NCBI GenBank assembly: GCA_965202665.1
Contig: OZ241841.1
Coordinates: 2,208,001 to 2,272,000 of the forward strand
From: Candidatus Spongiisociaceae bacterium
Lineage (GTDB): Bacteria; Actinomycetota; Acidimicrobiia; Spongiisociales; Spongiisociaceae
DNA: 64,000 bases
Reading direction: 5' to 3'
Each line of letters begins with the position of its first letter. The first letter of the stretch is position 1. Shown in pieces: positions 6,640-46,785 of this stretch. Made by a program: the position numbers and the translations under genes. The notes below the pieces were generated by a model, which was not told the DNA's origin, did not search any database, and saw only the letters and a list, made by a program, of their open reading frames with translations.

Positions 6640-6687
6640 CCGCGACCGCCCACGCCGTCCCGCCCCCGGCGGGGCCCGGCCCGCCTG

Positions 6688-9324
6688 ATGGACGACCCCG
6701 GCGCCGGGGATCTGACCGGCCCGTACGACCCGCAAAAAATTGAAGGGCGCTGGTACCGGGCCTGGGAGGAGTCGGGTGTCTTCTCCCCGGATGTGAACCC
6801 GGACGGGGATCCTTTTACCATCGTCATCCCCCCGCCCAACGTGACCGGGGTGCTGCACATGGGCCACGCCCTGGACCATTCCATCCAGGACGCCGTAATC
6901 CGCCGCAAACGCATGCAGGGGTTCGCCGCCCTGTGGCTGCCCGGAACCGACCACGCCGGGATCGCCACGCAGATGGTGGTGGAAAGGGAGTTGGCCGCCG
7001 AAGGCTTGAGCCGTCACGACCTGGGACGGGAAGCCTTTGTGGAGCGGGTGTGGGAGTGGAAGCGCAAGTCGGGGGGGTCCATCACCGATCAGATGCGGGC
7101 CCTGGGCGACTCCTGCGACTGGAGCCGGGAGCGGTTCACTTTGGACGAGGGGCTGTCCGCCGCGGTGCGGGAAGTGTTCGTGCGCCTCTACGAACAGGGG
7201 CTCATCTACCGGGGGCGGCGCATCATCAACTGGTCGCCCGGCCTGCGCACCGCCATCTCCGACATAGAAGTGGAATATCGGGAAACGGACGGCTGCCTCA
7301 CCTACATGGACTACCCGTTCGCCGACGGGGAGGGGGGGATTACGGTGGCCACCACCCGCCCGGAAACCATGCTGGGCGATACCGGGGTGGCGGTTCATCC
7401 CGACGACGACCGTTTCCGGGAGGCGGTGGGGCGGACGGTGCTGCTGCCGTTGATGGAGCGGGAGATTCCGGTGGTGGCCGACGCGGCCGTGGACCCCGCC
7501 TTCGGAACCGGGGCGGTGAAAGTCACCCCCGCCCACGACCCGACCGACTTCGAGATCGCCTTCCGGGCCGGGTTGCCGCCCATTCAGGTCATCGGCCCCG
7601 ACGCCCGCATGACCGCCGCCGCCGGGCGCTTCGCCGGCCTGGACCGGTTCGCGGCCCGAACCGAAGTGCTGGCCGCTTTGCGGGAGGAGGGGCGCATTGT
7701 CCGAGCGGAGGAGCATCGGCATACGGTGGGGCATTGTTCCCGCAGCGGAACCCCGGTGGAGCCGATGCTGTCCGACCAGTGGTTCGTCAAAGTGGCGGAC
7801 CTGGTGGGCCCGGCGGTGGAGGCGGTGCGGGACGGGCGCACCGAGTTCATCCCCGGGCGGTGGGATAAAAACTATTTCCACTGGATGGGGCAGTTGCAGG
7901 ACTGGTGCATCAGCCGTCAGCTGTGGTGGGGGCATCGCATTCCCGCCTGGCATTGCCCGGAGGACGGGACGGTGATGGTGGCCCGCTCCGCGCCCGCCGC
8001 CTGCCGGAAATGCGGCTCCGGGAATCTGGCCCCCGACCCGGATGTGCTGGACACCTGGTTCAGTTCCGCCCTGTGGCCGTTCAGCACTTTGGGCTGGCCG
8101 GAGGACACCTCCGACATGCGGCGCTTCTACCCTACTTCAACGCTGGTTACCGGATTCGACATTATTTTTTTCTGGGTGGCCCGGATGATGAAAATGGCCT
8201 TGCGCTTCACCGGGGAGGCCCCTTTCCGGGATGTGGTGATTCACGGGTTGGTGCGGGCCGCCGACGGGCGGAAAATGTCCAAGTCGGCGGGCAACGCCCT
8301 GGACCCGATGGAGATGATCGACCGCTACGGAGCGGACGCTTTGCGCCTCAGCCTGCTGCAGGCGGCCGCCCCCGGACACGACGTGCCGTTCGACGAAAAA
8401 TGGGTGGACGCCGCCCGTCGGTTCGGCAACAAACTGTGGAACGCGGCCAAGTTCGTCATCGTCCATCAGCGGGTGGGGCCGGTTCCCCCCGACGGCGGCT
8501 ATCCGGACGACCCCGGCCCGGCGGATGCTTGGATTCTGTCCCGCTTGGCCGAGACGGGGGTGAAAGCGGACCAACTGCTGGACCGCTACCGGCTGTCGGA
8601 CGCTTTTTCCCTGTTGTACAATTTCGCCTGGTCGGAGATGTTCGACTGGTATCTGGAAATGTGCAAGCCCGCTTTGGCCGACGCCGGCCCGAATGCGCCG
8701 CAGGCCGGGGCCGCCCGCCAAACCCTGGGGGTGGCGTTGCGGGATTTGCTCAAGTTTTTCCATCCCGCCATCCCGTTTCTCACCGAAGAGCTGTACAGCC
8801 GGTTGGTGGGGGAGGGGATGTGCGTCACCGCCTCCTGGCCGCAACCTCCCGCCTACCGGGCTCCGGAGGGAATGGACGTTCTGCGGGAGCTGGTCGCCGG
8901 GTTGCGCCGTTTCCGCTCCGAACACAACCTGCCGCCCCGGCGGGAGGTCCCGGTTCTCATCCACGATCCGCAGGGGATGTGGGCGCAATGGTGGTCCCCG
9001 CAGGTCGCCGCCCTGGCCCGTATGGTTCCCCGGTTGGGAGACCCGCCCGCCGGGCCGGGGTTTTCGCGGGTGGAAGCCGGGCCGGTCAAAGGATTCATTC
9101 TTTTGGAGGGCCTGGTGGACGTCGCCGCGGAACGGGAGCGGTTGCGGGCCCGTTTGGAGGAGGCGCAAAAAGACGCGGGACGGGCCCGGCAAAAACTGGC
9201 TAACCCGAATTTCAGGGAGCGGGCCCCGGCCGAGGTGGTGGACAAAGAAGAGTCGAAGGCATCCGCCGCTGAAGCCCTGGCCGGGGAACTGTCCGCCCAG
9301 CTGGAGAAACTGGGCGCCCCCTGA
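6688..9324 (+). CDS. valS: Valine--tRNA ligase
   Basis: PPPNVTGVLHMGH, DWCISRQLWWGH, KMSKS, C-terminal coiled coil. Confidence 0.98.
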   Translation: MDDPGAGDLTGPYDPQKIEGRWYRAWEESGVFSPDVNPDGDPFTIVIPPPNVTGVLHMGHALDHSIQDAVIRRKRMQGFAALWLPGTDHAGIATQMVVERELAAEGLSRHDLGREAFVERVWEWKRKSGGSITDQMRALGDSCDWSRERFTLDEGLSAAVREVFVRLYEQGLIYRGRRIINWSPGLRTAISDIEVEYRETDGCLTYMDYPFADGEGGITVATTRPETMLGDTGVAVHPDDDRFREAVGRTVLLPLMEREIPVVADAAVDPAFGTGAVKVTPAHDPTDFEIAFRAGLPPIQVIGPDARMTAAAGRFAGLDRFAARTEVLAALREEGRIVRAEEHRHTVGHCSRSGTPVEPMLSDQWFVKVADLVGPAVEAVRDGRTEFIPGRWDKNYFHWMGQLQDWCISRQLWWGHRIPAWHCPEDGTVMVARSAPAACRKCGSGNLAPDPDVLDTWFSSALWPFSTLGWPEDTSDMRRFYPTSTLVTGFDIIFFWVARMMKMALRFTGEAPFRDVVIHGLVRAADGRKMSKSAGNALDPMEMIDRYGADALRLSLLQAAAPGHDVPFDEKWVDAARRFGNKLWNAAKFVIVHQRVGPVPPDGGYPDDPGPADAWILSRLAETGVKADQLLDRYRLSDAFSLLYNFAWSEMFDWYLEMCKPALADAGPNAPQAGAARQTLGVALRDLLKFFHPAIPFLTEELYSRLVGEGMCVTASWPQPPAYRAPEGMDVLRELVAGLRRFRSEHNLPPRREVPVLIHDPQGMWAQWWSPQVAALARMVPRLGDPPAGPGFSRVEAGPVKGFILLEGLVDVAAERERLRARLEEAQKDAGRARQKLANPNFRERAPAEVVDKEESKASAAEALAGELSAQLEKLGAP

Positions 9325-9375: not shown

Positions 9376-9464
9376 GGAGGGGTCGCATAGTCCGGTCTAG
9401 TGCGCGGCACTCGAAATGCCGTAGGGGTTTTCGCCCCTCGTGGGTTCGAATCCCACCCCCTCCG
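9376..9464 (+). tRNA. tRNA-Ser(CGA)
   Basis: Acceptor GGAGGGG/CCCCTCC-G, anticodon arm CGGCA-CT-CGA-AA-TGCCG, long variable arm. Confidence 0.95.
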
Positions 9465-9489
9465 CTTTTGTCGGTGGGTGGGTGGCGAT

Positions 9490-9517
9490 TTGACATATTG
9501 GGGGGGGGGGTTAGGGT
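9490..9517 (+). promoter_or_regulatory. Sigma70-type promoter with G11 spacer tract
   Basis: TTGACA(9490-9495)-TATT-G11(9500-9510)-T-TAGGGT(9512-9517); 16-nt spacer; upstream of the giant gene. Confidence 0.7.
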
Positions 9518-9606
9518 TTGGGGTGCTGGGCTTGTTGTGGGTTCGGCGGCCTGTTGCGGCGGCGGGTTTGGTATTGGTTCGCCGTTGGAGAGTTTGGAGG
9601 TTGGTG

Positions 9607-12600
9607 ATGGGGCGGATGTCGGGGTTGGGTTCGGCGGGTGGGGTGCGTGCGTTGGGGTTGGGTTTGGTTGTGGGTGGGGTGCGGCGTGTGTTGGGTTTGG
9701 GTTTGGCGGTGGTGTTGGTGGTGGGTTTGTTGCCGTTGGTTCCGGTGGGGGTGGTGGGGCAGGCGCAGAAGGCTACGGTGAGTATCACGTACCGGGATGG
9801 TGGTGCGGTTGTTGGTGTGAATGAGGGTGAGGAGGTGAGGTTGAAGTTGACTGTGGAGTTCGCTGGTGGGACGGCGCATAAGGGTGGTTCTATTTATGTT
9901 CAGACGGGTGGTACTGCTACTCGTCATACGGATTATGGGATGGGTAAGGATGATAATTGTTGTTCGACGGCTACTCAGTTTTTTGATAATTTTATTGATA
10001 ATGCTATTATTGATTGGAGTACTGGTTCTGGTACTGTGTCAACGAATTTTACTTTTCGGGCGGTGAATGATACGTTGTTTGAGTATTATGAGTCGTTTAA
10101 GTTGGCGGTGCAGACTTTTTCTACTGGGGGTTTTCAGTATAATGATGTGGGGTTTAGTATTCGGGATCGGGATCGTAGTTTGGGGGTGTCGTATTCTGTT
10201 AGTGAGGTGGGGGAGAGTGCGGCGGGGCAGTGGCGGTCGGGTACGGTGACATTGAGTAGGGGGGAGGTTTCGGGTGGGGTGTTTGTGCCTGCTACGGCGA
10301 ATTGGACTTCTTATGGTGTTACTCCTTTGCAGGTGAAGGTGGTGGATGGCACGGCGAAGAATGAGGTGTCGGGGGTGACGGATGAGAGGCGTGATTTTGT
10401 GTTTTCGCATTTTAATGATGCGGTGGTTGCGAATCGGCGGATTGTTAGTGTTGCTAAGGGGCAGGTGTCGGGTACGGTTGGTAATGTCGGGTTTCGGGTT
10501 TTGTCGGAGGTGGGGCCGCGGGTGGCGGAGCCGCCGGAGGTGTTTTATGTGACGGTGGATACTTCTCCGGTGTGGGGGGCGCCGGTGACGATTGTGGATG
10601 ATGATGTGACTATTGCGTTGTCGTCGTCGTCGTCGAATAGTTCTTTTGCGGGGTTCGCGGAGAGTGACATTCCGCAGCCGGTGACGGTGACGGCCCGGTT
10701 TTTGCATGCGGCTAGTTCGGTGATTCCTACGGATACGGTGGTGAATGTGAGCGTGAAGTCGTTTTCGGATAGTCCTGTGTTGACGGGTGGGGGGGCGGTG
10801 GTGTCGTCGGGGGCGTGTCCGCAGTCGAGTGGGGATGTGTGTTTGGATGTGGGGAATTCGTTTACGGTGACGATCCCGGCGGGGGAGTTGTCGGGGTCGA
10901 GGACGGTTTTGATGACGGCGCGGGATGAGGGCGGTACGGCGGAGGGGGTGGAGGGGGTGGGGTTTGATGGGTCGGCGTCGGTGGGGGGGGAGGCGGTGTT
11001 TGTGTATGGTCATGCTATCCGGCTGTATGATGCGGATGATCCGAAGGTGATTGGGTTGTCGTTGCATGAGGCGGCGACGGGGGAGGCGGGGTTGTCGTCG
11101 GTGGATGAGGGCGCGGCGAAGGCGGTGCGGGTGCGGGCTACTATGACTGGGTCGTGGCAGTCGGTGTGGGAGTCGCAGTATACGAGGGTGGTGTGGGTGA
11201 CGCCGGGTTCGGTGAGCGGTTCGGCGGTGTTGGGGTCGTGTACGGGTTCGGGTCAGAGCCGGGTGTGCACGGGGGACTTCGGACGGAACACGGGGGAGGT
11301 GACTGTCACTATGCAGCCTAAGCCGGCATCGCAGGCGACGGTGGGGGATGTGACGATCACCGCTTATGATGATACGGTGACGGAAGACGGGGAGTCGGTG
11401 GTGTTCTGGGGCCGGGCTAATTCGCAGTGGGTGGTCGCTCCGGCCATGTTGACTATTAACGATGCGGATCGGCATGTGGATTTGGGCGTGTCCCCCTCCA
11501 CGATAGCGGAGCCGGCGTCGGGTTCGGCTCGTAGTGATTTTCTGTTTACGGCGCGGTTTGGGCAGATGGTTGATAATGTGTTTGTTCCGTCGACGTCTAG
11601 TACTGTGGGCAGCGCTTTTAGTATTTCGGATTTTTCTTTTGTTAATGGGTCGGCGCGGGCTGAGGACGATAATGGGATTCCTCTGGATTTTTATCCGGTT
11701 GATACCGCTAATGTGTCTAGGGCTGTTTCCATAGTGGCGGGTTCGGTGTCGGGGACGCTGACATGGCCTTTCAATTCTTATGCTGATAATGAGGCGGAGG
11801 GGACGGAGGATTTCAGTTTCAGGGTTTGGTCGTCGACCGCGGGATACAGCGTGGGGGTGCCTAGAGTGAATATCACAGACCCGGATTCAGTGTTGAATCT
11901 GTCGATAGACGCCGATGGGGGAACAACCGGGGTGCAGCCGTTGCGGGAGGGAGAGTCGTCATCGGGGGCGATGGCGACGGCGGCGTTCCCGGCGGGTTCG
12001 TCCACGATCGGGTCGGCAACCTCGGTTGCTTTGTCTGCGGGGTTGGGGACGCCGGGGGCGGGGGTGGCGTCGGCGGCTGATTTTACTTATGCGCCGGCTT
12101 CTCCGCTTACGGTTTCGGTGGGCGCCAATAGCGTGTCGGGGTCGGCGGCGTTGGGGGGGTTGACGGTGGTGGATGATGGTGTGGTGGAGGGTCCGGAGAC
12201 GTTTGTTTTGTCGGGGGTGGTTACGGGGGCGGTGGGGGTGTCGGCGGCGGATAGTTCGGTGACGATTGTGGATGATGATGCGGATATTGATTTGACGGTG
12301 TCGGAGTCGTCGGTGCTGGAAGGAGCGGGGGAGCAAGCGATCACCGTGAAAGCCGCTTTTAGGGGGAGCAGTTCCGTTTTGGCTGCGGCGACTGATGTGG
12401 CGGTGACGTTGGCGTCGGCGGCGTCGGGTGGGGCGGTGTTGTCGTCGGCGGTGTGTCCGCAGACCAGCGGAGACGTGTGTTCCGACAAGACCAATAATCA
12501 GTTCACGGTGTCCATCCCAGCGGGCGCCACCAGCGGGTCGGCGACGTTGCGGCTGACCGCCCGGGACGACGGCAACGCGGAGGGGGGAGAGGGGCTGGTG

Positions 12601-15600
12601 TTGTCAGGGACGGCGTCGGTGGGCGGCGCGGCGGTGTCGGTTACGTCCGCGAATATTAGCGTGTTTGATCCGGGGCAGGCGATTGATTTGTCTTTGACCG
12701 ACACCGCGCAAACTCCTGTGGTGTTGACGGCGGTGGGGGAGGACGGGGGCGCGCGGGTGGTGCGGGTGACGGCTACTGCTCCGGCGGCGGTGTCGGCGGA
12801 GACGGTGGTGACGGTGAGGATGGGGCTGGGGGGTTCGGCGGTTTCGTCGTGTTCGGGTTCGGGGCAGAGCCGGGTTTGCACGGGGGATTTCGGGACGGTT
12901 GCGGATACGTCGACGATAACCATCCCGTCGGGGGGAACGACCGGGTCGGTGGACGTGACGGTCACCCCCTTTGAGGACACCATTGCGGAGGAGGATGAGA
13001 CGATTCGTGTTGGGGGTTCGGCGGGGGGGTATGCGGTGCGGGGGGCTGATTTGACGATCACCGACCAGGATCGGACGGTGGGGGTAGGCGTGGGGATGGG
13101 GGAGGCGGTGTATGGGGAGGGCGGGGATCCGCAGTCGGGCTGGGCCACCCGCAGCCAGTGTATGACTTCCGCTCCGTTTTCCAGGACGGTGACCGGCCGC
13201 CTAGGAGGGCTTTCGGCGGAGGGGGTGTTCACCGCGGCTACCTCCTCCACGCTGGGCAGTAACGTGCGGGGGCGGGTGCGGACGGTGGACGGCACCGCTA
13301 CCTACAATCAGGATTATTCGTCGGATGGGTTCGCGGTGGACACCATGCCTACCGCGTGGGAGTTTATTACCATCGCGGCTGGTTCCACGTCGGGGACGGC
13401 GACGGTGCAGTTGGTGAGTTGCGTGGATGACGTGGCGGAAGGGGATGAGACTTATCAGATGACTATTTCCAGCCTCCCGGCGGGGTTCGGGGCGCATCCG
13501 CAGGTGATGACCGTCACCGACGACGACAGCCGCCCCGGGCTGCGGGGAACCATATCCGAGGACGCGGGCGGAACAGTGGGGGTGGAGGCTTTCCTCCCGG
13601 CGGGGTCGTCGGAGTTGACCGACCCGCAGGTGGTGTCTTTAACATCGGTGACCGCCGACAGCGCGGGGACGGCTGATTTTTCTTATCCGTCGCCTGCGCC
13701 GGTGTTGTTGACCATCCCGGCTGGTTCCACTTCGGTCAGCGGCGCCATCCCGGGGTTGGCTATCACTGATGATGGGAGCGTGGAGGGGCCGGAGCGGTTG
13801 ACTTTGGGCGGGACGGACGCGTCGGGGGCTGCGGTGTCGGGTTCGTTGGCTATCGTCGATGACGACGCGGTGATAGATGTGCTGGTTTCCCCGGCGGAGG
13901 TGTTGGAGCAGGCCGCCGCTCAACAGATCGGGGTGACCGCCCGTTTCCGGGGAGAAACTTCCGCGTTGACCGCGGCGACGGCGGTGACGGTTACGTTGGC
14001 GGGGGCGCAGAACGGGGCTACGTTGGCGGCGGCGTGTCCGGCTACTTCTGAGGATGCTTGCACCGACCAGGCCAACAACCAGTTCACCATCAGCATCCCC
14101 GCCGGGAGCACCGAGGCGTCTGGGTCGTTTATGCTGACCGCCCGCAGCGACAACGCGGCGGACAACGACGAAGACCTGACCGTATCCGGCGCGGCCACCA
14201 TCGGAGGCGAAGCCGCGGTGGTGGAGGGGACGGAGCTGACCATATTCGACCCGGGCCGGTCCATCGCGTTGAGTTTCACCGACACGGCTTCCACGCCGGT
14301 TCCGTTGGTGGATGTGGGGGAGGATGGGGGGGCTAAAGTGATTCGGGTGGTGGCTTCTGCGCCGGTGGCGCCGACGTCGGCGGTGACGGTGGAGGTGGTG
14401 GTGGGAGCGGAGGGTACTACGGCCGGGGCGGGGGATTATTCGTCGAGTTCGGATAGGGTGTCGGTGACTATCGCCGCCAACGACACCAGCGGGACAGCGG
14501 ATGTGACTATCACCCCCGCGTCGGATACCATCACCGAAGACTTGGAGACTATCCGGTTCGCCGGTTCAGCCACTGGGTATGCGGTGGTGGCGAATGATTT
14601 GGTGATACAGGATCAGGATCGGGCGGTGAAGGTGATGGCGGCGGAGGGGGATCTGGTGGTGCGGGAGCCTAGGGAGGGGGAGGCGTTGACCAACCAGTAT
14701 AATGGCATTCTCAAGTTTTTCCGGGGTATGACGGCTGTTTTGGGCGGGGTGTCGGGCGGGGTGTTCACCCCCTCCACCTCTTCTACTTACAGTTCTAATT
14801 TGGGGATGCGGGTGCGGGTTGATGCGGGGACGGCCACCGTGGGCGGCCAGACTAGCACTACCGACGATATCTTCCATGAGCACGGCGAGGCGGACGACCC
14901 GCTGGAGGTGACTATAAACGCGGGGGCCCTTTCCGGTAATGTGAATATAGTGTACGCTCCCACCGCGGTTCCGGTGGTTGCTGTTTTGAAGGACACGGTG
15001 GCGGAACCGGATCAGATCTTTTACTTCCGCCCCGCCGTTCCCTCCGGTTGGACCGCGGTCAGGGAGACGATCACCATCCAAGACTCCAACCAGATAGCGA
15101 TAACCGTGGACACTGACAGCGCGACGGGAACCCAGACCACGCTGGCGGAAGGCGCTACCGGTTCCGGTGTGACCGTTTCCGCCGCTTACTACAACGCCAC
15201 CACCTCGGTAATCACCTCCGCCACCAACGTGACTCTGTCAGCCGCCGCGCCTACTCCGGCGGGTGCGGGGAAGGCCGTCGCCACTGATTTCACCTATTCT
15301 CCGGCTACGCCCAATGCGATTACTTTCCCCGCTAACAACGCCACTCCTTCAGCCACCGCCACGCTGGCCGGGTTGACGGTTACCGACGACGCGATAGTGG
15401 AGGGGCCGGAGACGATCACCGTCAGCGGTTCTTCCTCGTTAGGCGACGCCACCCCCGCTACTATTACCATCGTTGACGACGATGACGATATCACGTTGTC
15501 GGTGTTCCCCGCTTCGGTAGCGGAAGGCTCCGGAGCGCAGACCATTGCCGTCACCGCCGCTTTCGCGGGAACCACCTCCGCTTTGACTACCGCCACCGAC

Positions 15601-18600
15601 GTAACAGTCACCATCGCCTCCCCGTCCAGCAACGGCGCCACCCTGGCCGCCTGCCCCTCCTCCACCACTGATGTATGCGCTACCGGTTTGACCAGTAGCC
15701 AGCTGACGGTAACCATCCCCGCTGGGGAAACCAGTAGCACGGCTACTTTCCAGCTCACCGCCCGCGATGACACCACCGCCGACGATGATGAGAAACTGAC
15801 CGTCACCGGCTCCGCCACCGTCGGCGGCGCAACAGCGACCATCACCGGAACGGAAATGTCGGTACGCGATCCGGGGCGGGCGATCACCCTTAGTTTCACC
15901 GACACCGCCCAAACTCCCGCCGCGCTGACCGCGGTGGAAGAAGACGGCGGGGCGCAGACGGTGCGGGTGGTGGCCACCGTCGGGACGGCCCCCGCCGCGG
16001 ATACCGATGTAACGGTCACCGTAGGAGCCGCGGGCGGCACCGCCATTTTGGGAACGTTGGGGGATTACCTGCGTAGCACGGGGGAGGCGACGGTGACTAT
16101 CGCGGCGAATAATACCAGCGGAACCGCCGATGTGACTATCACTCCGGTAGTGGACAGGGTGACCGAAGATCACGAGACGATCCGCTTCGCGGGCGCCGCC
16201 ACCGGATACGCGATAGTACCAGCTGATTTGCAAATCACCGATCAAGATCGGGTTATCAAATTCACTTTGAATCCGGACACGCAAGATGAGTTGCCTTACA
16301 GACAAAATTCGATTAGTTTGTCCGCTGTCGCTGCTTTGGGAGGCACCTCCGGTGGCGTGTTCACTCCTTCCACGTCCTCTACCTACAGCGGAAGTATGAA
16401 TTTGTTGGGGTGGAGTCCTGAAGGTTATGGTCAGAATGCTCAGACTAGATCTGTTGCGACATATGTTATAGAGGACGGTGATCCCTTCTTTTTGCATTCG
16501 TATAGGAGATGGTTTTCTATTCCGTCTGGTTCTTTCGCCTCTTCGTCGCAAAGCATGGACCATAGCGTGGAGATAAACGATACGGCGGATCCGGATGAGG
16601 GGGTGAGACGGGTGGGAGCGAGACAGAATACGGTTCCGGCGGGGTTCGTTCAGGAACAAGCCTGGTTTAGGATACGGGACGTGGCGGATTCGCGGGTGGT
16701 GTTCGGGGTGGATACCGACGGTAACACTATGGGCAACCAGACTACGATTGAGGAGGGCGCTTCCGGGTCGGGGGTGGAGGTGTGGGCGGGATGGCCGCCG
16801 GGGGTTACCAATAACCGTCACGCGTCGCCGGTCACGGCCACTCTTACCATGGAGGAGGATACGGAACCGGGGGCGGGGGAGGCGGGGGACGCCGATTTTG
16901 ATTACGCTCCGCCGTCGCCGCTGTCGTTCACTATTCCCGTTAAGGTGGCGGAGGATCTTATGGCTACGCCTCCGGTGGTGGGTGTGTCTGGGTTGAGGAG
17001 TTCTTCGGGGACGTTGGCGGGTTTGTCGGTGGTTGATGATTCGATTGTGGAGGGCCCGGAGACGATAGCCTTTGGGGGGACTTCCAGTTTGGGCGCCGGG
17101 CATAGCGTTACGGGAGAGTTGACCATCGCCGACGACGACGCCGATATTACGTTGTCGGTGTTCCCGGCGGTGGTGGCGGAAGGGTCGGGGGCGCAGACGA
17201 TAACCGTCACCGCCCGCTTCGCGGGAACTACCTCGGTGTTGACAACGGCTACCAACGTGACGGTGACCATCGCGGCGGCGGCGTCGGATGGGGCGGTGGT
17301 GGACGCGGATGCGTGCCCGTCGGAGTCGGGGGATGATGTGTGTACTAATAAGGCGGGCAATCAGTTTACGGTTGCTATTCCGGCGGGTGAGTTGGAGGGC
17401 AGTGGCGTTTTCCAGTTGACCGCTCGGGAAGACTCCACCGCCGATGATGGGGAAGGGCTGATCGTTTCGGGGTCGGCCATGGTGGGGAGCGAGGCGGTGG
17501 AGGTGACGGGGGCGGCGATGACGGTTCATGATGCGGATAAGACGATCACGTTATCTTTTACCGATACCGCTCAGACCCCGACGGCGTTGACCGAGGTGGA
17601 GGAGGATGGGGGTGCGCAGACGGTGCGGGTGGTGGCTACCGCTCCGGCGGCGGTGGGCGCGTCGCCGGTGACGGTTTCGGTGACGGTGGGCGCGGCGGGC
17701 GGGGAGGCGGCGCTGAACGCTGATTACACCCGTAGTTCCGCTTCGGCGACGGTTACTATCCCCGCGCAGGGCACGAGCGGTTCGGCGGATGTGACTATAA
17801 CGCCCCGGTCGGATACGATTACCGAAAATCAGGAGACAATAGTTTTCACCGGTTCCGCTTCCGGGTACGGGGTGGTGGGGGCTGGTTTGGGAATCGCGGA
17901 TCAGGATCGGTACATTCGGATGTCCCCCACCGGCGGTGACCGGTTTAATGAGCCCCCTGTTGTGTTTGCTGGTCATTCGGTGGGCGCTAAGGCTGATTTG
18001 GGTGGTGTAACCGATGGGGTTTTCACCGCTTCGACGGCTTCCACGTACAGTGTTGCTTTGAACAATTTGCGGGTGACGATGCGGGGAGTGACCGCGACGG
18101 AGGGGATAGCCGGGTCGCCGGTAGGGCCGAGGGATTTCGTTTGGACCGGTAATGGAGGTGGTGTCGACTCGCGGTTTTTGTCTATCCCGGCTGGTTCTTT
18201 GTCTGCTACGGCGGTTCCTCATACTTTACAGTTGTTTCGTTATGCCAGGGAGGTGGAGCCGCTGGAAACGATAGAAGTGGTGGCTACTGAGCCGGCGGGT
18301 TTCACTGTCGTCCCGGGGATTATCAGCATTTTGGACACAATTCAGACTCAGCTTACCTTGCAGGTGGATACCGATCGGGTGGAGAGCGGGAATCAGAGCG
18401 TGTTAGCGGAGGGCGCTGCTGGTTCCAGTGTGGATGTGTCGGGAAGATACCGGGGTACGAGTAACAAGTTGGGGGAGGACACGGTGGTTACTTTGTCGAC
18501 GGCTGTGGAAACCCCCGGGGCGGGGAAGGCTACCGCGGCTGATTTCACTTATGCGCCGTCGTCGCCGAACTCTTTCACCATCCCGCAGGCGGCGGTCTCT

Positions 18601-21600
18601 TCGTCGGTTGCGGCGACGTTGGCTGGGTTGACGGTTGTGGATGATGCGATCGTGGAGGGTTCGGAAACGTTCCGGATTACCGCTGCTTCTTCGCAGACGT
18701 TGCGGATTACGGGTGCTTCTTCGTCGGGGGCGGTTGCGGCGGCGACGGTGACTATTTGGGATGATGATGCTGATATTGATTTGTCGGTGTCCCCGTCGGT
18801 GGTGGCGGAAGGCGTGGGGGCGCAGACGATAACGGTCACCGCCCGTTTCAAGGGTTCCAGCACTGTGTTGACGGAGGCGGTGGATGTGTTGGTGTCGGTG
18901 GCGGGCGCGTCGGGGGGCGCGGCGTTGGCGGCTGCGCCGTGTCCGCAGGCGTCGGGGGATGCTTGTACGGATAAGACGGGCAATCAGTTTACGGTTACTA
19001 TTCCGGCGGGTTCGTTGTCGGCTAACGGAACGTTCCAGTTGACCGCCCGTGATGATAACGTCGCCGAGGGGGCGGAGGCTTTGACTGTTAGCGGTTCGGC
19101 TATGGTGGGGGGTTTGGCGGTGGATGTGGAGTCGGCTGTGGTGAACGTGGTGGATCGGGGCATTGAGTTGTCGGTGAGTAGCGGTGGGTCGGCGTTGACC
19201 GGGTTGGGGGAGGACAGCGGTTCCACCACCGTGCGGGTAACCGCCACTTTGCCGGTCGCGTCGAGTACGCCGGTGGTGGTGGGGGTGAACGTGACGGGCG
19301 GGTCCGCCACTTTGGATGATGACAGTATGTTCGGGGCGGGGGAGGATTTTCGGGTTTCTTATCCGCAGGGTTCCCCGCCGGCGGGTTACGGGATGGGGAT
19401 TTCCATTCCCGCGGGGCGGGTCAGCGGTTGGGCGGATATTGTGGTGGCGGTGAACGACGACCGGGCGGCGGAGGGGGCGGCGGAGACGATATCCGTGGAT
19501 GGGGCGGTGGCGAGCGGGAGCGTGCTGGCGGTGGTGGACACCGCTTTTGATATCACCGACAACGACTCCGGTATAACTCTGAACGTAACCGCCGACGCGT
19601 TGGAAGAAGACGGCGACGGGAGAGCGGCCCGGGTGACCGCCTCTTTGGCGGGAACCACCTCCCAGATCGGGGTCGCCACCGTCGTAACGTTGTCGTTCAC
19701 GGCGGGGGCTGGTACGGAAGCGGCTGATTTCACCGCTCCCGGGGCCGGCAGTGAGATAACGGTGACCATCCCGGCTGGCTCGGTCAGCAGTTCCTCCACC
19801 GCTCTGACCGGTTTGGGTATAACCGATGACGCTATCGCCGAGGTGGGGGAAACCATCCAAGTGGGGGGAACCACCCCCGGTCTGTCGGTTACTCCCGCCT
19901 CGCTGACTATTCAAGACGACGACTCGGTGATAGTCCTAACCGCCAGCGCGGCGGCGGCGGAAGGCGGAACTGGGTCGGGGATTACCGTGTCGGCCGCTTT
20001 CCAAACCGGGACCACCTCCTCCGAAATCGCCACCGCCACCGCGGTGACGCTCACCGTGGGGGACGGGACCGCGGTCAGTCCCGCCGACTACCAAAACAGC
20101 GGAACATACACCGTGACCATACCCGCCCAAGCGACCGGCGCCGCCGCCGGAGTATCCCTGGCCGGCCTGACTGTAAAACATGATGACATAACCGAAGGGC
20201 GGGAGACGATCATTATCAGCGGAACCTCCACTTTGGGCGCCGCTGCTTCCGCGGTGTTGGCGATCGCCGACGCCGACACCGCCCTCACCCTGAGCGCTAC
20301 CCCCGATTTGCTGGTGGAAAGACCCAACCATTACATTGTGACCGTCACCGCCGCCTTCGACAACGTAGCCTCTTCCGCCCGTACTGCGGCTGTTCCGGTG
20401 ACGGTCACCCTCGCCGACGACACCGCCACCCACGGCACCAGCAACGACTGGTACACCAACCTGCCCGCCAACCGGCAGCTGACGGTGAACATCCCCGCCG
20501 GACGGACCAGCGGCGCATCCACCTTCCGCATCGTCGCCCGCGCCGACAGCACAGGGGAATCCACCGAACGGGTTTCCCTCACCGCTACCGCGCAGGTAGA
20601 CGGCTCTGCGGTGACCGCCACTTCCGCCCGGTTGGAAATCGTCGACCAAGGCGTGACTCTGGGCTGGGCCAGCAACACCGGAACCCCCCTGACCGCCATC
20701 GCGGAGGACAGCGGAACCACCACCCTGCGCATAACCGCCTCCATACCCGTGGTAGCCCCCGCCGGAGGCGCCGTCATAGGAGTGAACATCGCCAACGGCA
20801 CCGCCGCCCCCGCCGCCGCCTCCACCGGTTTCGGAACCGGGGAGGACTACCGCATCACCCTGCCCACCAGTCCCGCCCCGCCCGCCGGATACGACCTAGC
20901 CGTCGCTATCTCCGCCGGGGAAACCAGCGGCCACAGAACGGTAACGTTGCAGGTAAACGACGACAACACCGCCGAGGGGGCGTCGGAGGGGGCTGACCCG
21001 GAAACTGTCCACATCGAAGGCGGTACCCTGACGCTGGGCGGATCCACCCTGCCGGTGGTGGGGGCCAACCTGAACATCACCGACGACGACCAAGCCCCCG
21101 ATGAAATAACCATCACTCTGCAAACCCCCGGCGGGGCCGACCTCGCCCAAATATTCGAAACAACCGCCACCACTCCGGTGGTTGTAAAAGCCGCCTACCA
21201 GGGTACCAACACTCTGCCCCACTCGGTGATCGTCCCCCTGGGAGTAGCCAAAGTCGGCGACACTGCCATACCCGACACGGACTACCGGGACGTAACCTCG
21301 CCCCCTTCCATTACCATCCCCGCCTACCAATCGCATGGAATGGCCCGTTTCGATCTAGAAGCCATCGACGACGATGATCCTGAAAGCCCCGAAACGATCA
21401 CCGTACGAGGCGACCCCGCCGACACCCTGACCGCCTTCACCGTCGGTGAAGACACCCTAACCCTCGTCGACGACGAAAGCGCCGTAACCCTCTCCCTGGA
21501 TGTCACCCAAGCCCCCGAAGGAACCCGCCAAAATGTTACCGTGAAAGCCGCCTTCTCGGCCGGCGTCACCCAAACCGCTCAGAAAACCATCCGAGTAACC

Positions 21601-22974
21601 GTAACCGACGGAACCGCCACCGCCGGAGAAGACTACCAAACCCATGCCCCGTTCGATATCAGAATCCCCGCCAACAGCAACTACGCCACCACCAACATCA
21701 CCCTCAACCTCACCCCCGACGACCGCGTCTACGAAGGCAACGAAACCCTGGAACTGACCGGATCGCACTCCCAGTTCACCGTCAGACCCGTCACTTTCAC
21801 CATCACCGAAAACGACGCCCAACCCAACCGCATAACCCTATCCGCCAGCCCCAACCGAATAAACGAAGGCCAAACCGCAAACGTAACCATCACCGCCTCC
21901 CTCGGCTCAGTCGCTCTAACCCAAGACATGCAAGTTCCCATCCGTTTGGGAACCGGAGAATCTTACCAACCCGGCCCCGGCGCCCACACCATCCGCATCC
22001 CCGCTGGCCAAACCAGCGGAAACATCCAAATAAGAATACAAATAAACGACGACAACACCCGTGAGGACGCCAAACAAATTCGCATAACCCCCGGCGCCGT
22101 TGCCGGATTCACCGTCACCACCACCGCTATCACCATCCCCGCCAACGACGCCCCCGCTGTCACCACCACCCCCACCGGCGGTGGCGGAGGAGGTGGTGGC
22201 GGTGGAGGAGGAGGTGGTGGTGGCGCCCCAGCTCCGCCCCCCGCAGGAGGGGGAGGGGGCGGTGGAGGCGGTGGAGGAGGGGCCCCGCCCCCACCCGCCG
22301 GAGGAGGTGGCGCCCCGCCCCCGGCTGGTCCCGCTGGACCTGTCGCGCCGGTTGCGCCTCCGCCCGCGCCGGTGGTCTGCCAGGGACGGTTCTGCGACGA
22401 TGACGGCAGCGTCCACGAAGACAACATCGAGTTGATGGCCGTATGGGGTATAACCATCGGATGCGACGCCAACGACTCCACCAAATACTGTCCCAGTGCG
22501 CAAATCACCCGTCGGCAAATGGCCACTTTCATCTACCGGGCAGTCAATCCCCGCTGGCCCATCCAGTTCCCCACCGGCATAGAAATCAACGATGTCCCCG
22601 CCGACGCCAGCTACCGTTCCTACGCCGACTGGCTGGTAAGCATCGGGGCCTTCCAGCTGGACGACGGGAACTTCAATCCCCGGGGCATAGTAACCCGAGC
22701 CGATATGGCGGTGATGATGGTAGCCGCTTTCCCCCATATCCAGGCCGTATCCGAGTCGCAAAACCTGTTCGCGGACACCGGCAACTTGGACGCGGCGGTG
22801 GTGCGGGCTATTGAAGGCATAGCCGATAGCGGAGTGACCAGGGGATGCACCACCACGCCGCCTCTCAGGTACTGCCCCAACAATCCGGTGACCCGGGCGC
22901 AGATGGCGTCCTTCTTCGTAAGGGTAATCAACCAAGCCCCCGCCGCCGACGACGCCGCAGGCGCAAGTTCATAA
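9607..22974 (+). CDS. Giant (~4,450 aa) surface protein with Calx-beta/Ig-like repeats, Gly/Pro linker and C-terminal SLH domains
   Basis: ATG 9607 after GGAGG (the ORF-track start overlaps tRNA-Ser). Hydrophobic signal-like N-terminus, many 'DD.I.EG.ET...TI.DDD' Calx-beta-like units, poly-G/P linker ~22177-22370, SLH motifs ITRRQMATFI, VTRADMAVMM, VTRAQMASFF. Confidence 0.9.
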   Translation: MGRMSGLGSAGGVRALGLGLVVGGVRRVLGLGLAVVLVVGLLPLVPVGVVGQAQKATVSITYRDGGAVVGVNEGEEVRLKLTVEFAGGTAHKGGSIYVQTGGTATRHTDYGMGKDDNCCSTATQFFDNFIDNAIIDWSTGSGTVSTNFTFRAVNDTLFEYYESFKLAVQTFSTGGFQYNDVGFSIRDRDRSLGVSYSVSEVGESAAGQWRSGTVTLSRGEVSGGVFVPATANWTSYGVTPLQVKVVDGTAKNEVSGVTDERRDFVFSHFNDAVVANRRIVSVAKGQVSGTVGNVGFRVLSEVGPRVAEPPEVFYVTVDTSPVWGAPVTIVDDDVTIALSSSSSNSSFAGFAESDIPQPVTVTARFLHAASSVIPTDTVVNVSVKSFSDSPVLTGGGAVVSSGACPQSSGDVCLDVGNSFTVTIPAGELSGSRTVLMTARDEGGTAEGVEGVGFDGSASVGGEAVFVYGHAIRLYDADDPKVIGLSLHEAATGEAGLSSVDEGAAKAVRVRATMTGSWQSVWESQYTRVVWVTPGSVSGSAVLGSCTGSGQSRVCTGDFGRNTGEVTVTMQPKPASQATVGDVTITAYDDTVTEDGESVVFWGRANSQWVVAPAMLTINDADRHVDLGVSPSTIAEPASGSARSDFLFTARFGQMVDNVFVPSTSSTVGSAFSISDFSFVNGSARAEDDNGIPLDFYPVDTANVSRAVSIVAGSVSGTLTWPFNSYADNEAEGTEDFSFRVWSSTAGYSVGVPRVNITDPDSVLNLSIDADGGTTGVQPLREGESSSGAMATAAFPAGSSTIGSATSVALSAGLGTPGAGVASAADFTYAPASPLTVSVGANSVSGSAALGGLTVVDDGVVEGPETFVLSGVVTGAVGVSAADSSVTIVDDDADIDLTVSESSVLEGAGEQAITVKAAFRGSSSVLAAATDVAVTLASAASGGAVLSSAVCPQTSGDVCSDKTNNQFTVSIPAGATSGSATLRLTARDDGNAEGGEGLVLSGTASVGGAAVSVTSANISVFDPGQAIDLSLTDTAQTPVVLTAVGEDGGARVVRVTATAPAAVSAETVVTVRMGLGGSAVSSCSGSGQSRVCTGDFGTVADTSTITIPSGGTTGSVDVTVTPFEDTIAEEDETIRVGGSAGGYAVRGADLTITDQDRTVGVGVGMGEAVYGEGGDPQSGWATRSQCMTSAPFSRTVTGRLGGLSAEGVFTAATSSTLGSNVRGRVRTVDGTATYNQDYSSDGFAVDTMPTAWEFITIAAGSTSGTATVQLVSCVDDVAEGDETYQMTISSLPAGFGAHPQVMTVTDDDSRPGLRGTISEDAGGTVGVEAFLPAGSSELTDPQVVSLTSVTADSAGTADFSYPSPAPVLLTIPAGSTSVSGAIPGLAITDDGSVEGPERLTLGGTDASGAAVSGSLAIVDDDAVIDVLVSPAEVLEQAAAQQIGVTARFRGETSALTAATAVTVTLAGAQNGATLAAACPATSEDACTDQANNQFTISIPAGSTEASGSFMLTARSDNAADNDEDLTVSGAATIGGEAAVVEGTELTIFDPGRSIALSFTDTASTPVPLVDVGEDGGAKVIRVVASAPVAPTSAVTVEVVVGAEGTTAGAGDYSSSSDRVSVTIAANDTSGTADVTITPASDTITEDLETIRFAGSATGYAVVANDLVIQDQDRAVKVMAAEGDLVVREPREGEALTNQYNGILKFFRGMTAVLGGVSGGVFTPSTSSTYSSNLGMRVRVDAGTATVGGQTSTTDDIFHEHGEADDPLEVTINAGALSGNVNIVYAPTAVPVVAVLKDTVAEPDQIFYFRPAVPSGWTAVRETITIQDSNQIAITVDTDSATGTQTTLAEGATGSGVTVSAAYYNATTSVITSATNVTLSAAAPTPAGAGKAVATDFTYSPATPNAITFPANNATPSATATLAGLTVTDDAIVEGPETITVSGSSSLGDATPATITIVDDDDDITLSVFPASVAEGSGAQTIAVTAAFAGTTSALTTATDVTVTIASPSSNGATLAACPSSTTDVCATGLTSSQLTVTIPAGETSSTATFQLTARDDTTADDDEKLTVTGSATVGGATATITGTEMSVRDPGRAITLSFTDTAQTPAALTAVEEDGGAQTVRVVATVGTAPAADTDVTVTVGAAGGTAILGTLGDYLRSTGEATVTIAANNTSGTADVTITPVVDRVTEDHETIRFAGAATGYAIVPADLQITDQDRVIKFTLNPDTQDELPYRQNSISLSAVAALGGTSGGVFTPSTSSTYSGSMNLLGWSPEGYGQNAQTRSVATYVIEDGDPFFLHSYRRWFSIPSGSFASSSQSMDHSVEINDTADPDEGVRRVGARQNTVPAGFVQEQAWFRIRDVADSRVVFGVDTDGNTMGNQTTIEEGASGSGVEVWAGWPPGVTNNRHASPVTATLTMEEDTEPGAGEAGDADFDYAPPSPLSFTIPVKVAEDLMATPPVVGVSGLRSSSGTLAGLSVVDDSIVEGPETIAFGGTSSLGAGHSVTGELTIADDDADITLSVFPAVVAEGSGAQTITVTARFAGTTSVLTTATNVTVTIAAAASDGAVVDADACPSESGDDVCTNKAGNQFTVAIPAGELEGSGVFQLTAREDSTADDGEGLIVSGSAMVGSEAVEVTGAAMTVHDADKTITLSFTDTAQTPTALTEVEEDGGAQTVRVVATAPAAVGASPVTVSVTVGAAGGEAALNADYTRSSASATVTIPAQGTSGSADVTITPRSDTITENQETIVFTGSASGYGVVGAGLGIADQDRYIRMSPTGGDRFNEPPVVFAGHSVGAKADLGGVTDGVFTASTASTYSVALNNLRVTMRGVTATEGIAGSPVGPRDFVWTGNGGGVDSRFLSIPAGSLSATAVPHTLQLFRYAREVEPLETIEVVATEPAGFTVVPGIISILDTIQTQLTLQVDTDRVESGNQSVLAEGAAGSSVDVSGRYRGTSNKLGEDTVVTLSTAVETPGAGKATAADFTYAPSSPNSFTIPQAAVSSSVAATLAGLTVVDDAIVEGSETFRITAASSQTLRITGASSSGAVAAATVTIWDDDADIDLSVSPSVVAEGVGAQTITVTARFKGSSTVLTEAVDVLVSVAGASGGAALAAAPCPQASGDACTDKTGNQFTVTIPAGSLSANGTFQLTARDDNVAEGAEALTVSGSAMVGGLAVDVESAVVNVVDRGIELSVSSGGSALTGLGEDSGSTTVRVTATLPVASSTPVVVGVNVTGGSATLDDDSMFGAGEDFRVSYPQGSPPAGYGMGISIPAGRVSGWADIVVAVNDDRAAEGAAETISVDGAVASGSVLAVVDTAFDITDNDSGITLNVTADALEEDGDGRAARVTASLAGTTSQIGVATVVTLSFTAGAGTEAADFTAPGAGSEITVTIPAGSVSSSSTALTGLGITDDAIAEVGETIQVGGTTPGLSVTPASLTIQDDDSVIVLTASAAAAEGGTGSGITVSAAFQTGTTSSEIATATAVTLTVGDGTAVSPADYQNSGTYTVTIPAQATGAAAGVSLAGLTVKHDDITEGRETIIISGTSTLGAAASAVLAIADADTALTLSATPDLLVERPNHYIVTVTAAFDNVASSARTAAVPVTVTLADDTATHGTSNDWYTNLPANRQLTVNIPAGRTSGASTFRIVARADSTGESTERVSLTATAQVDGSAVTATSARLEIVDQGVTLGWASNTGTPLTAIAEDSGTTTLRITASIPVVAPAGGAVIGVNIANGTAAPAAASTGFGTGEDYRITLPTSPAPPAGYDLAVAISAGETSGHRTVTLQVNDDNTAEGASEGADPETVHIEGGTLTLGGSTLPVVGANLNITDDDQAPDEITITLQTPGGADLAQIFETTATTPVVVKAAYQGTNTLPHSVIVPLGVAKVGDTAIPDTDYRDVTSPPSITIPAYQSHGMARFDLEAIDDDDPESPETITVRGDPADTLTAFTVGEDTLTLVDDESAVTLSLDVTQAPEGTRQNVTVKAAFSAGVTQTAQKTIRVTVTDGTATAGEDYQTHAPFDIRIPANSNYATTNITLNLTPDDRVYEGNETLELTGSHSQFTVRPVTFTITENDAQPNRITLSASPNRINEGQTANVTITASLGSVALTQDMQVPIRLGTGESYQPGPGAHTIRIPAGQTSGNIQIRIQINDDNTREDAKQIRITPGAVAGFTVTTTAITIPANDAPAVTTTPTGGGGGGGGGGGGGGGGAPAPPPAGGGGGGGGGGGGAPPPPAGGGGAPPPAGPAGPVAPVAPPPAPVVCQGRFCDDDGSVHEDNIELMAVWGITIGCDANDSTKYCPSAQITRRQMATFIYRAVNPRWPIQFPTGIEINDVPADASYRSYADWLVSIGAFQLDDGNFNPRGIVTRADMAVMMVAAFPHIQAVSESQNLFADTGNLDAAVVRAIEGIADSGVTRGCTTTPPLRYCPNNPVTRAQMASFFVRVINQAPAADDAAGASS

Positions 22975-23043
22975 CCACCCCAACCTATCCCGGCCTCTGC
23001 CCAACCTAGGGGCCGGGATATTCTTTTCCCCAACCCCCCAAAT

Positions 23044-45340: not shown

Positions 45341-45341
45341 A

Positions 45342-45802
45342 TGTACTTGGCCGGAACGTTGGAGACGGTTTGGTTGTTGCTTAGGTGAAGATCTCCTGGT
45401 GTTATGGGGAGTGAAAAAGTGCCCTATAGCACGGGAGGATGTCTTCGGGATGCATGGTAACGCGAGGTCGTCGCCTTTTGGGGATGATGTTGCTGGTAAT
45501 AGGGGGCGAGCCGGTAGCGCGGGTGGCTAGGGGTATGGGCATGTCCCGGCAGTGCGTGTCCAAGTGGGTGCGTCGCTACCGGGAAGAAGGCCGGGCCGGT
45601 TTGGAGGACCGGTCGTCGCGGCCGCGTTGTTCCCCCATGCGCACCAGCCGGGAGGTGGAGGAACAGGTGTTGCGGAGCGTTGCGTCTGTGGGAATGTGTC
45701 TATCTGACCGGCGAGCCGCTCAAAACCCTCCCAGCACCCCACTCCAGCCTTGGAGGCAAACCACCAACCTCCAGACTGTAACCAACCTACCGGCCATGTA
45801 CA
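45342..45802 (+). mobile_element. Internally deleted IS481-family element (461 bp)
   Basis: TGT...ACA termini with inverted repeats; flanks GTTAGA/GTTAGG; HTH fragment SRQCVSKWVRRYREEG..LEDRSSRP. Confidence 0.88.
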
Positions 45803-46630: not shown

Positions 46631-46785
46631 CACCAATCGCGAAGACCCGGATTGTTTGTTTGAGCGTTGTAGTGTTTGGCGGAGCTATGAGCGGGAGGTT
46701 GGTCTTGAGGCGGGGCGGGGTTGGTTTTCGGGGGCGGGGGTTCGCCGGTCGGCGCGGGGGGGCCGCGGTTCGGGGGGCTGGAGGA

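What the first reader, a model, noticed from the sequence alone, without database searches (positions are those of the whole stretch)
9520..22200. Strand polarity: G/T-rich left end grading to C/A-rich right end in repeated DNA
Seen: the first ~2.5 kb of the giant gene uses almost only G/T at third codon positions, while ~20-22 kb uses almost only C/A for the same domain types. The same left-G/T, right-C/A pattern occurs in IS481 60094-60950, IS481 45342-45802 and 46100-46640; G/T bursts also occur at 27330-27480, 33285-33600 and 63100-64000. Single-copy genes (clpX, valS) lack it. A flip within one gene is not explained by replication or transcription skew. Inference: a directional process on multicopy DNA, e.g. 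gene conversion favouring G.T-wobble heteroduplexes or deamination of exposed ssDNA, acting inward from both flanks; an assembler tie-breaking artefact is the alternative.
Basis: partly seen in the sequence, partly recalled or inferred. Interest (0 to 1): 0.8.

Follow-up and report, generated by a model that had tools for sequence, protein, structure and literature searches.

The report
Repair-filtered G/T-to-C/A polarity in repeats
A giant surface-protein gene and other repeated genes of this bacterium are spelled almost only with G or T at silent positions near their start and with C or A near their end, a real case of the known but unexplained "GRINS" repeats; it is likely made when the copies overwrite each other and a repair enzyme (NucS) that sees only G/T mismatches filters the result.

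Summary
Observation real. In the 4,455-aa Calx-beta/SLH gene, G+T at fourfold sites falls from 0.96-0.98 (9.5-11.3 kb) to 0.12 (21.8-22.1 kb), with an internal reset near 16.4 kb; valS and clpX are flat. Contigs from four studies carry it, so it is not an artefact. Thirteen paralogues, IS481 and ISL3 share the 5'-G/T to 3'-C/A polarity on either strand. It meets the GRINS definition (Nivina 2021); that paper gives no cause and no polarity. The C/G shift is as large as the transition shifts, which disfavours deamination and G.T wobble. The genome has NucS and no MutS/MutL hit. Near-identical tuf pairs are skewed in 21 of 22 NucS genomes and 0 of 12 lacking both repair systems; single or diverged copies are not skewed. 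Best reading (0.55): gene conversion filtered by NucS, which repairs only G-G, G-T and T-T. Against: this is one phylogenetic contrast; Thermus-like tuf pairs are skewed without NucS; proteobacterial IS481 are also polar. The scan reached the GRINS-NucS idea twice before, on other DNA.

The parts
9478..23033 (.). Homology block shared with two other chromosomal copies (84-94% identity); meets the GRINS definition (mean |GC skew| 0.27, |TA skew| 0.22, r 0.78)
9607..22974 (+). Giant surface-protein gene, 4,455 aa from the ATG after a GGAGG site (start inferred); Calx-beta-like repeats, Gly/Pro linker, C-terminal SLH
9490..9517 (+). Promoter-like TTGACA-TATT-G11-TTAGGGT near the left edge of the shared block; the G run varies in length in three runs
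   Evidence: sequence
9520..13100 (+). G/T-rich 5' arm: 0.81-0.98 G+T at fourfold sites; Gly/Val/Phe/Trp enriched
14920..16419 (+). Internal C/A dip (0.27-0.60), present in all three copies; unexplained
16420..19419 (+). Second G/T-rich stretch (0.72-0.91)
20020..22119 (+). C/A-rich 3' arm (0.12-0.47); Thr/Pro/Ile/Ala enriched
9376..9465 (+). tRNA-Ser(CGA) just upstream; it makes the listed ORF start at 9400 spurious
60090..60955 (+). IS481 copy (frameshifted), G/T left (0.64) and C/A right (0.28 G+T, all sites)
45338..45807 (+). IS481 5' fragment; only the G/T-rich left half is significant
46100..46640 (.). Degenerate repeat remnant, G/T left (0.79) and C/A right (0.33); only 46338-46623 has partners in the genome
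33069..33940 (-). ISL3 remnant; its C/A-rich 3' end reads as the G/T burst on the + strand
62977..64000 (+). Start of a multicopy SLH surface-protein gene (ATG 63100) with the same poly-G promoter (62985-63012) and a G/T-rich 5' end
27330..27480 (+). Short G/T burst with no repeat partner in the genome; not explained by the model
5341..9324 (+). clpX and valS: single-copy controls, flat at about 0.5

Best explanation
The polarity is a GRINS-type skew in repeated DNA, likely produced by gene conversion between copies and filtered by the mismatch-repair endonuclease NucS. Shown here: the copies are mosaics; the skew follows the bounds of shared sequence, not genes or expression; all four G/T-versus-A/C contrasts move together; the genome has nucS and no MutS or MutL hit. 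From the literature: NucS removes G-G, G-T and T-T mismatches brought in by an incoming single strand and ignores the others. Inferred: an incoming strand that puts G or T over a resident A or C makes a keto-keto mismatch and is reverted, while A or C over G or T survives. The incoming strand therefore drifts to A/C and its partner to G/T. In synthesis-dependent strand annealing new DNA runs 3'-ward from the break, so the top strand would be the incoming one to the right of a break and the bottom strand to the left. Summed over breaks inside a bounded repeat, this gives G/T on the left and C/A on the right on both strands. An excess of events on the lagging strand (inferred) would add the G/T offset on the leading-sense strand, which dominates in tuf. 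The skew is then a by-product of repair, not an adaptation.
For: Mosaic identity among three copies. Same polarity in 13 paralogues on both strands, leading and lagging, resetting at each gene of tandem arrays, and in relatives' giant genes. Gene-independent test: 135 of 208 repeat blocks are more G/T on the left, p 3e-9; null 47.5%. Ribosomal-protein, fusA and rpoB genes are 0.34-0.58 while both identical tuf copies are 0.96. nucS E 5.5e-33; no MutS_I or MutL match. tuf: 21 of 22 near-identical pairs in NucS genomes are 0.65-0.96; 12 of 12 pairs lacking both systems are 0.36-0.44; 14 single or diverged NucS copies are 0.37-0.46. The 5' third exceeds the 3' third in 22 of 22, 5 of 12 and 2 of 10 (MutS) pairs. 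T/C at twofold sites is 0.50 in NucS pairs against 0.05-0.17 in the other groups. The all-four model beats transition-only models by 28-61 lnL. PKS repeats in two large-genome actinomycetes: 22 of 29 blocks decline left to right. NucS specificity in vivo: PMC11551767 section 14 and PMC11551744 passages. Uniform initiation bounded by the repeat: PMC5485169.
Against: NucS versus no-NucS among tuf pairs is a single phylogenetic contrast; 120 Thermoleophilia-type genomes with a tuf hit were all single-copy and could not add one. Eight Thermus-like genomes with no full NucS hit (MutS_I found in the 3 tested) have tuf at 0.76-0.83, mostly a G/C shift; ten Deinococcus-clade genomes with NucS have 0.30-0.43. 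IS481 genes from 8 proteobacterial plasmids decline as much (0.18) as those from 9 actinomycete plasmids (0.20, p 0.61). Exceptions with NucS: G242 (99.5% identical pair, 0.40) and G273 (gradient reversed). Unexplained: a single-copy G/T-rich operon, the burst at 27330 and the reset at 16.4 kb. Fitted tract length ranges from about 90 nt to over 10 kb. PMC13061034 suggests NucS repair may be reduced during recombination. No experiment, and no polarised population data.
Confidence: 0.55

Rival explanations
1. Gene conversion makes the skew, but the bias comes from something other than NucS that is shared by this clade or more widely: another mismatch-repair blind spot (MutS is recalled to miss C-C), a feature of strand exchange, or biased repair synthesis such as the tautomer or error-prone polymerase idea of the GRINS authors.
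For: Skewed Thermus-like tuf pairs without NucS; G/C shift in MutS-bearing actinobacterial pairs, 0.55 against 0.32; polar proteobacterial IS481; GRINS reported in five phyla and some eukaryotes; only one independent contrast.
Against: Twelve pairs with neither repair system are flat, and so is the one Thermus-clade genome with neither hit (G466, 0.24), which points to repair. The tautomer idea predicts transitions only, which fit poorly. The keto-keto specificity of NucS matches the four contrasts exactly.
Confidence: 0.28
2. One reading: heteroduplexes with G.T wobble are favoured, or exposed single strands are deaminated (C to T, A to G) inward from both flanks.
For: Both give the right polarity and move T/C and G/A strongly.
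Against: They cap G at about 0.47 of fourfold sites at equilibrium; observed 0.67 (5' arm) and 0.89 (tuf). Neither depends on repair genes, yet 12 of 12 converting tuf pairs without NucS or MutS are flat. The model assumes equilibrium and a reversible baseline.
Confidence: 0.07
3. Selection on codons or RNA (expression level, mRNA folding, Rho termination, or protein sequence) favours G/U early and C/A late in these genes.
For: On the coding strand the polarity is always 5' G/T to 3' C/A, so orientation cannot separate it from a transcript effect; a single-copy operon is G/T-rich in two genomes; a weak 5'>3' trend exists in single-copy genes.
Against: Equally expressed neighbours of tuf are flat. 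Diverged or single tuf copies are flat in the same families. PKS blocks switch on and off inside one reading frame at the repeat bounds. T-ending twofold codons, rare in normal tuf (0.05), reach 0.92 in this genome's tuf.
Confidence: 0.07
4. Assembler tie-breaking artefact in collapsed repeats.
For: Copies and strain variants are abundant here.
Against: Contigs of 370-476 nt from three studies match 9734-10209 with 1-5 differences; several others of 490-954 nt match exactly. Copies are only 84-94% identical and the genome is one contig. The same pattern occurs in other complete genomes and isolate plasmids.
Confidence: 0.01

Closest known systems
[quoted passage not shown]
   Same: Duplicated DNA over 500 bp and over 80% identical, with intense correlated GC and TA skews, strongest at third positions; Gly/Val/Trp versus Pro/Thr/His/Gln shift; linked to gene conversion; commonest in actinobacteria; also in transposases.
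   Different: Here it spans 5-13 kb surface-protein genes and tuf, not 1 kb PKS domains. An ordered left-G/T to right-C/A polarity and a leading-strand offset are not described in the text read, which says both signs on one strand are unexplained. The paper treats GRINS as elements whose skew promotes conversion and proposes tautomer errors; the data here point the other way, with conversion making the skew.
NucS/EndoMS short-patch mismatch repair (PMC11551767, abstract and section 14; PMC11551744, abstract and passages)
   Same: G-G, G-T and T-T mismatches brought in by an annealed single strand are removed and all others escape; this is the filter the model needs.
   Different: Shown for oligonucleotides at the replication fork in Mycobacterium smegmatis, not for heteroduplexes between paralogues; no compositional consequence is drawn in the parts read.
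Concerted evolution of tufA/tufB (PMC5485169 and PMC6053082, passages)
   Same: Conversion starts anywhere in the gene, is bounded by the repeat and is shaped by mismatch repair.
   Different: No base-composition bias is reported in the passages seen; E. coli, Aeromonas, Sinorhizobium and Shinella tuf are flat, 0.41-0.49.
GC-biased gene conversion (recalled)
   Same: Repair of heteroduplex mismatches biases which allele is transmitted and mimics selection at silent sites.
   Different: The axis is keto versus amino, it is strand-specific, it changes sign along the repeat, and GC content is largely kept.

Membership tests
GRINS | Duplicated region longer than 500 bp with over 80% identity to another region | tested here: met
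   9390-18585 at 86.5%, 9478-18585 at 84.1%, 18600-23034 at 89.1% and 18718-23033 at 94.4% to two other loci; measured by blastn, not the authors' pipeline
GRINS | [quoted passage not shown] | tested here: met
   0.27 and 0.22 for the giant gene; IS481 0.30/0.23; ISL3 0.21/0.27; tuf 0.60/0.23; valS 0.10/0.13 fails as expected
GRINS | GC and TA skews positively correlated, strongest at third codon positions | tested here: met
   r 0.78; third-position G+T 0.98 to 0.11, far more than positions 1 and 2
GRINS | Association with gene conversion | tested here: met
   Patchwork of 96-100% identity that switches partners along the three copies
NucS-filtered conversion (proposed) | Host has nucS and lacks mutS/mutL | tested here: met
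   genome 94% complete by markers, one contig
NucS-filtered conversion (proposed) | All four keto/amino contrasts shift, transversions included | tested here: met
NucS-filtered conversion (proposed) | Skew tracks nucS across independent lineages | tested here: inconclusive
   21/22 against 0/12 in Actinomycetota but one contrast; no association in Deinococcota (p 0.35), where MutS is also present in those tested
NucS-filtered conversion (proposed) | NucS acts on paralogue heteroduplexes and removes the incoming allele | not testable with these tools
   Needs a nucS deletion experiment
GC-biased gene conversion | Rise in G+C at silent sites, symmetric between strands | tested here: not met
   Fourfold G+C is 0.71 (5' arm) and 0.80 (3' arm) against a 0.85 baseline, and the bias is strand-specific

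The most novel reading that the evidence does not exclude
A general, unrecognised force: gene conversion biased by the blind spots of the cell's mismatch-repair enzyme. NucS would give a full keto/amino, strand-polar bias and explain actinobacterial GRINS, PKS modules included. MutS would give mainly a G/C bias (Thermus-like tuf), and cells with neither would give none. The point where the sign flips would map which strand invades and where recombination starts in any repeat.
Probability: 0.45. Interest if true: 0.85.

Novelty: new variant of a known kind. Interest (0 to 1): 0.62.

Why it matters
GRINS occur in 37% of assembly-line polyketide synthase clusters and 95% of Streptomyces genomes and their cause is stated to be unknown. 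This case adds a rule, an ordered polarity set by the repeat's bounds, and a one-gene hypothesis that a nucS knockout in a laboratory actinobacterium can test directly. If right, the skew is a repair by-product strong enough to override codon preference in EF-Tu and to change amino-acid use (Val 14.0 to 8.1%, Thr 8.6 to 15.9% between the two arms). It would bias phylogenies and selection tests on repeated genes, and it would mark which repeats are actively recombining. The phenomenon itself is known and the mechanism is unproven.

Tried and rejected
Expression as the cause: rejected, highly expressed single-copy genes are flat. Replication skew alone: rejected, chromosome GC skew is within about 0.1 and the polarity holds on both replichores. 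Major/minor allele test across paralogues: G/T is the major allele 93:29 in the first third of the three-copy family and 11:53 in the last third of the ten-copy family; it was not corrected for saturation and the script stopped before two families, so it is not counted as evidence. Polarised population variants for the 5' arm were not obtained; that question is open. No RNA holder was listed. IS481 as a NucS test: did not discriminate; the proteobacterial copies were picked by likeness to an actinobacterial query and may have a mixed host history. Breaking the phylogenetic confound: one class with patchy nucS (39 of 131) had no duplicated tuf; Deinococcota gave a mixed result; the genome-contig scan for distant NucS returned 3 Deinococcus and 77 actinobacterial loci. 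Explaining the 16.4 kb reset by a break in homology: not found, all three copies align through it. Two proteins of the single-copy G/T-rich operon have no Pfam match. One protein-representative search was still queued and was not collected. Rows left out of the tuf count: three two-copy genomes whose second copy was not fetched (0.82-0.88); six hits in fragmented assemblies with 0.65-0.83, probably collapsed or unmatched duplicates; G273 (96.8%, 0.55; drawn in the tree only); a third, 66%-identical copy in G018 (0.26); single copies without NucS (0.35-0.57); and five single hits with NucS in fragmented assemblies plus one lower-GC one (0.40-0.48).
Full report
OBSERVATION. The window is G000:C1:2208001-2272000 of a one-contig, 2.77 Mb, 64% GC genome. 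It is an actinobacterium by its NucS and mycothiol-family genes; the class Acidimicrobiia is my inference. Runs that hold the gene include marine and sponge metagenomes. The finding lies in a 4,455-aa gene (9607-22974, start inferred) with Calx-beta and SLH matches, behind tRNA-Ser. I call K the share of silent third positions that are G or T on the coding strand. At fourfold sites K is 0.95-0.98 over 9520-11319, falls to 0.27 at 15.5 kb, returns to 0.72-0.91 over 16.4-19.4 kb and falls to 0.12 at 21.8-22.1 kb; valS and clpX stay at 0.49-0.59. No repeat-free window of equal size in the genome is as extreme at either end. The secondary sites hold, with the limits given under the observation check.

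NOT AN ARTEFACT. Contigs from four runs of four studies cover all 30 bins. Pieces of 370-476 nt from three studies match 9734-10209 with 1-5 differences. One run may be the source sample; the other three are independent. The three copies of the gene are 84-94% identical, too different to collapse. Giant genes in relatives G151, G154, G158 and G162 run mostly from 0.7-0.9 to 0.15-0.4; a few long or partial ones are flatter.

WHAT IT FOLLOWS. With my own heuristic gene calls, 50 of 215 genes in repeated DNA have a 5'-minus-3' K excess at z>3 against 82 of 1,449 single-copy genes. The top 13 are all paralogous giant surface-protein genes (z 18-26), on both strands and both replichores; SLH, IS481 and ISL3 families follow. 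In tandem arrays the gradient restarts at every gene and is close to linear over 5.5-7.2 kb. Ignoring genes, 135 of 208 repeat blocks are more G/T on the left (p 3e-9; null 47.5%). The three copies are a patchwork of 96-100% identical tracts that switch partner, which is the mark of conversion. Both tuf copies are identical and have K 0.96, while fusA, rpoB and ribosomal-protein genes beside them are 0.34-0.58. The skew starts at the tuf start codon, which is the edge of the shared block, and flips to C/A in the last 30 or so nt. Leading-strand copies sit higher than lagging ones (0.50-0.57 against 0.43-0.51, p 0.07), so there is an end polarity plus a leading-strand offset.

WHICH CHANGES. 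Between 9610-12009 and 20020-22119 all four contrasts move: T/C at twofold sites 0.86 to 0.12, G/A 0.98 to 0.19, G/C at fourfold sites 0.94 to 0.24, T/A 0.91 to 0.44. I fixed the bias from the twofold T/C sites and predicted fourfold composition at equilibrium. A bias on all keto/amino exchanges fits 28, 35 and 61 log-likelihood units better (5' arm, 3' arm, tuf) than the best transition-only model, which cannot lift G above about 0.47; the observed values are 0.67 and 0.89. This assumes equilibrium and a reversible baseline. It disfavours deamination, G.T wobble and tautomer errors.

MECHANISM. The genome has nucS and no MutS_I or MutL match. In M. smegmatis NucS repairs G-G, G-T and T-T mismatches made by an annealed oligonucleotide, over 500-fold, and all others escape (PMC11551767 section 14; PMC11551744 passages). 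An incoming G or T over a resident A or C faces a template T or G and is seen; the reverse makes A-C, C-C or A-A and is not. The incoming strand therefore drifts to A/C (inference). Conversion in tuf starts uniformly and is bounded by the gene (PMC5485169 passages), and mycobacterial recombination is said to go mainly by synthesis-dependent strand annealing (PMC13061034 passage). New DNA then lies 3' of the break on each strand, which gives left G/T and right C/A (inference). A three-parameter version describes each family (ratio of the two strands 1.22 for leading copies, 0.96 for lagging, about 9 for tuf), but its tract length ranges from about 90 nt to over 10 kb, and it does not give the 16.4 kb reset.

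COMPARATIVE TEST. I used duplicated tuf across the phylum. Near-identical pairs (98% or more) in NucS genomes: K 0.65-0.96 in 21 of 22, exception G242 at 0.40. Pairs with neither NucS nor MutS: 0.36-0.44 in 12 of 12. MutS pairs: 0.35-0.65 in 10. Single or diverged copies with NucS: 0.37-0.46 in 14. The 5' third exceeds the 3' third in 22 of 22, 5 of 12 and 2 of 10 pairs. Four proteobacterial tuf genes are 0.41-0.49. Rows left out are listed under Tried and rejected. On the tree, 'NucS plus converting pair' against the rest gives 5 independent pairs, 4 in the same direction and none opposite (p 0.125), but NucS against no NucS among pairs is one contrast. The link to concerted evolution is therefore well supported and the link to NucS is suggestive.

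RESULTS AGAINST. In Deinococcota (30 loci; 33 of 46 genomes had a full hit) NucS and K are not associated (8 against 10 two-copy genomes, p 0.35). Eight Thermus-like genomes without a full NucS hit have K 0.76-0.83, and ten Deinococcus-clade genomes with NucS have 0.30-0.43. The Thermus-like shift is mostly G/C (0.39 to 0.90) with less T/C (0.17 to 0.29; six genomes). MutS_I was found in the three tested, and the clade member with neither hit is not G/T-shifted. That would fit a MutS blind spot for C-C (recalled, not from a call), but E. coli and Deinococcus do not show it. IS481 genes from 8 proteobacterial plasmids are as polar as those from 9 actinomycete plasmids (17 of 302 records examined). 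G273 has a reversed gradient. A single-copy operon is G/T-rich in two genomes. One preprint reads M. tuberculosis data as reduced NucS repair during recombination.

WHAT IS KNOWN. The feature meets every stated criterion of GRINS (PMC8256042; parts 1-4 of 5 read; test). That text calls the mechanism unknown, proposes tautomer errors, suggests that skew promotes conversion, and does not describe an ordered polarity. Its supplements were not seen and may bear on polarity and on the gene-association scan. Two later reviews (PMC10394414, PMC13500794; passages) have no occurrence of NucS. Searches listed no paper whose title or abstract start links NucS to GRINS or to polar skew; the library lacks most subscription papers. 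PKS repeats in two large-genome actinomycetes fit the same rule: 22 of 29 blocks decline left to right (p 0.002; blocks are not independent). I noted the NucS idea. The scan's notes, read, show that two other agents reached it on a tuf pair and on an archaeal surface-protein gene; these are unchecked notes, not support, though the archaeal case is a lead for a second contrast.

VERDICT. Real, and a member of the GRINS class. New here are the strand-symmetric polarity bounded by the repeat, the evidence that transversions take part, and the dependence on ongoing conversion. NucS-filtered conversion is the best-supported cause (0.55); conversion biased by some repair or recombination asymmetry is likely at about 0.85. 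Interest 0.62, because one knockout experiment would decide a stated open question.

Noticed in passing
window 9490-9517 and 62985-63012; at least 23 sites in G000: A conserved TTGACA-(4-5 nt)-G11/12-TAGCGT-like promoter precedes most surface-protein paralogues (the script stopped before the last minus-strand runs), and the run at 9500 varies in length in three runs; likely phase variation. Noted before by the scan.
   Followed up: partly
G000:C1 637571-640443 (L162): Single-copy two-gene operon on the lagging strand with 0.82-0.91 G/T at silent sites, no Pfam match, ending in a 33-G run; its homologue in G151 is also G/T-rich. No repeat partner.
   Followed up: partly
G000:C1 1041185-1042375 and 2035689-2036879: Two identical tuf copies, 0.96 G/T at silent sites from the start codon, with only the last 30 or so nt C/A-rich; this EF-Tu scores lowest among the full-length hits listed for the class.
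   Followed up: yes
G000:C1 132501-133571 and 1276072-1277136: Two recA-like copies (named from the N-terminal sequence, by recall), 95.7% identical, with a milder version of the skew.
   Followed up: partly
L305, L308-L310, L314, L315, L288, L291: Thermus-like tuf genes (genus inferred from size and tree) have G/(G+C) 0.90 at fourfold sites against 0.39 in flanks; the one clade member with neither MutS nor NucS hit is C-rich instead.
   Followed up: partly
L125, L128, L129, L131-L134, L137-L139: In a MutS-bearing actinobacterial family, tuf pairs are enriched in A at fourfold sites in 9 of 10 genomes relative to flanks, possibly a different repair imprint.
   Followed up: no
L190-L200 (G229, G216): Polyketide-synthase repeats are G/T-rich on the coding strand (up to 0.82 of all sites), start sharply at the repeat's left edge and decline rightwards in 22 of 29 blocks.
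   Followed up: partly
window 23343-31074 and 52181-56047: Two restriction-modification-like islands: an Eco57I-type methylase plus PLD/SNF2 helicase, and an N6/N4 methylase plus neighbour.
   Followed up: no
L202-L204: nucS homologues lie on plasmids of Deinococcus, haloarchaea and Miltoncostaea, so the gene moves horizontally.
   Followed up: partly
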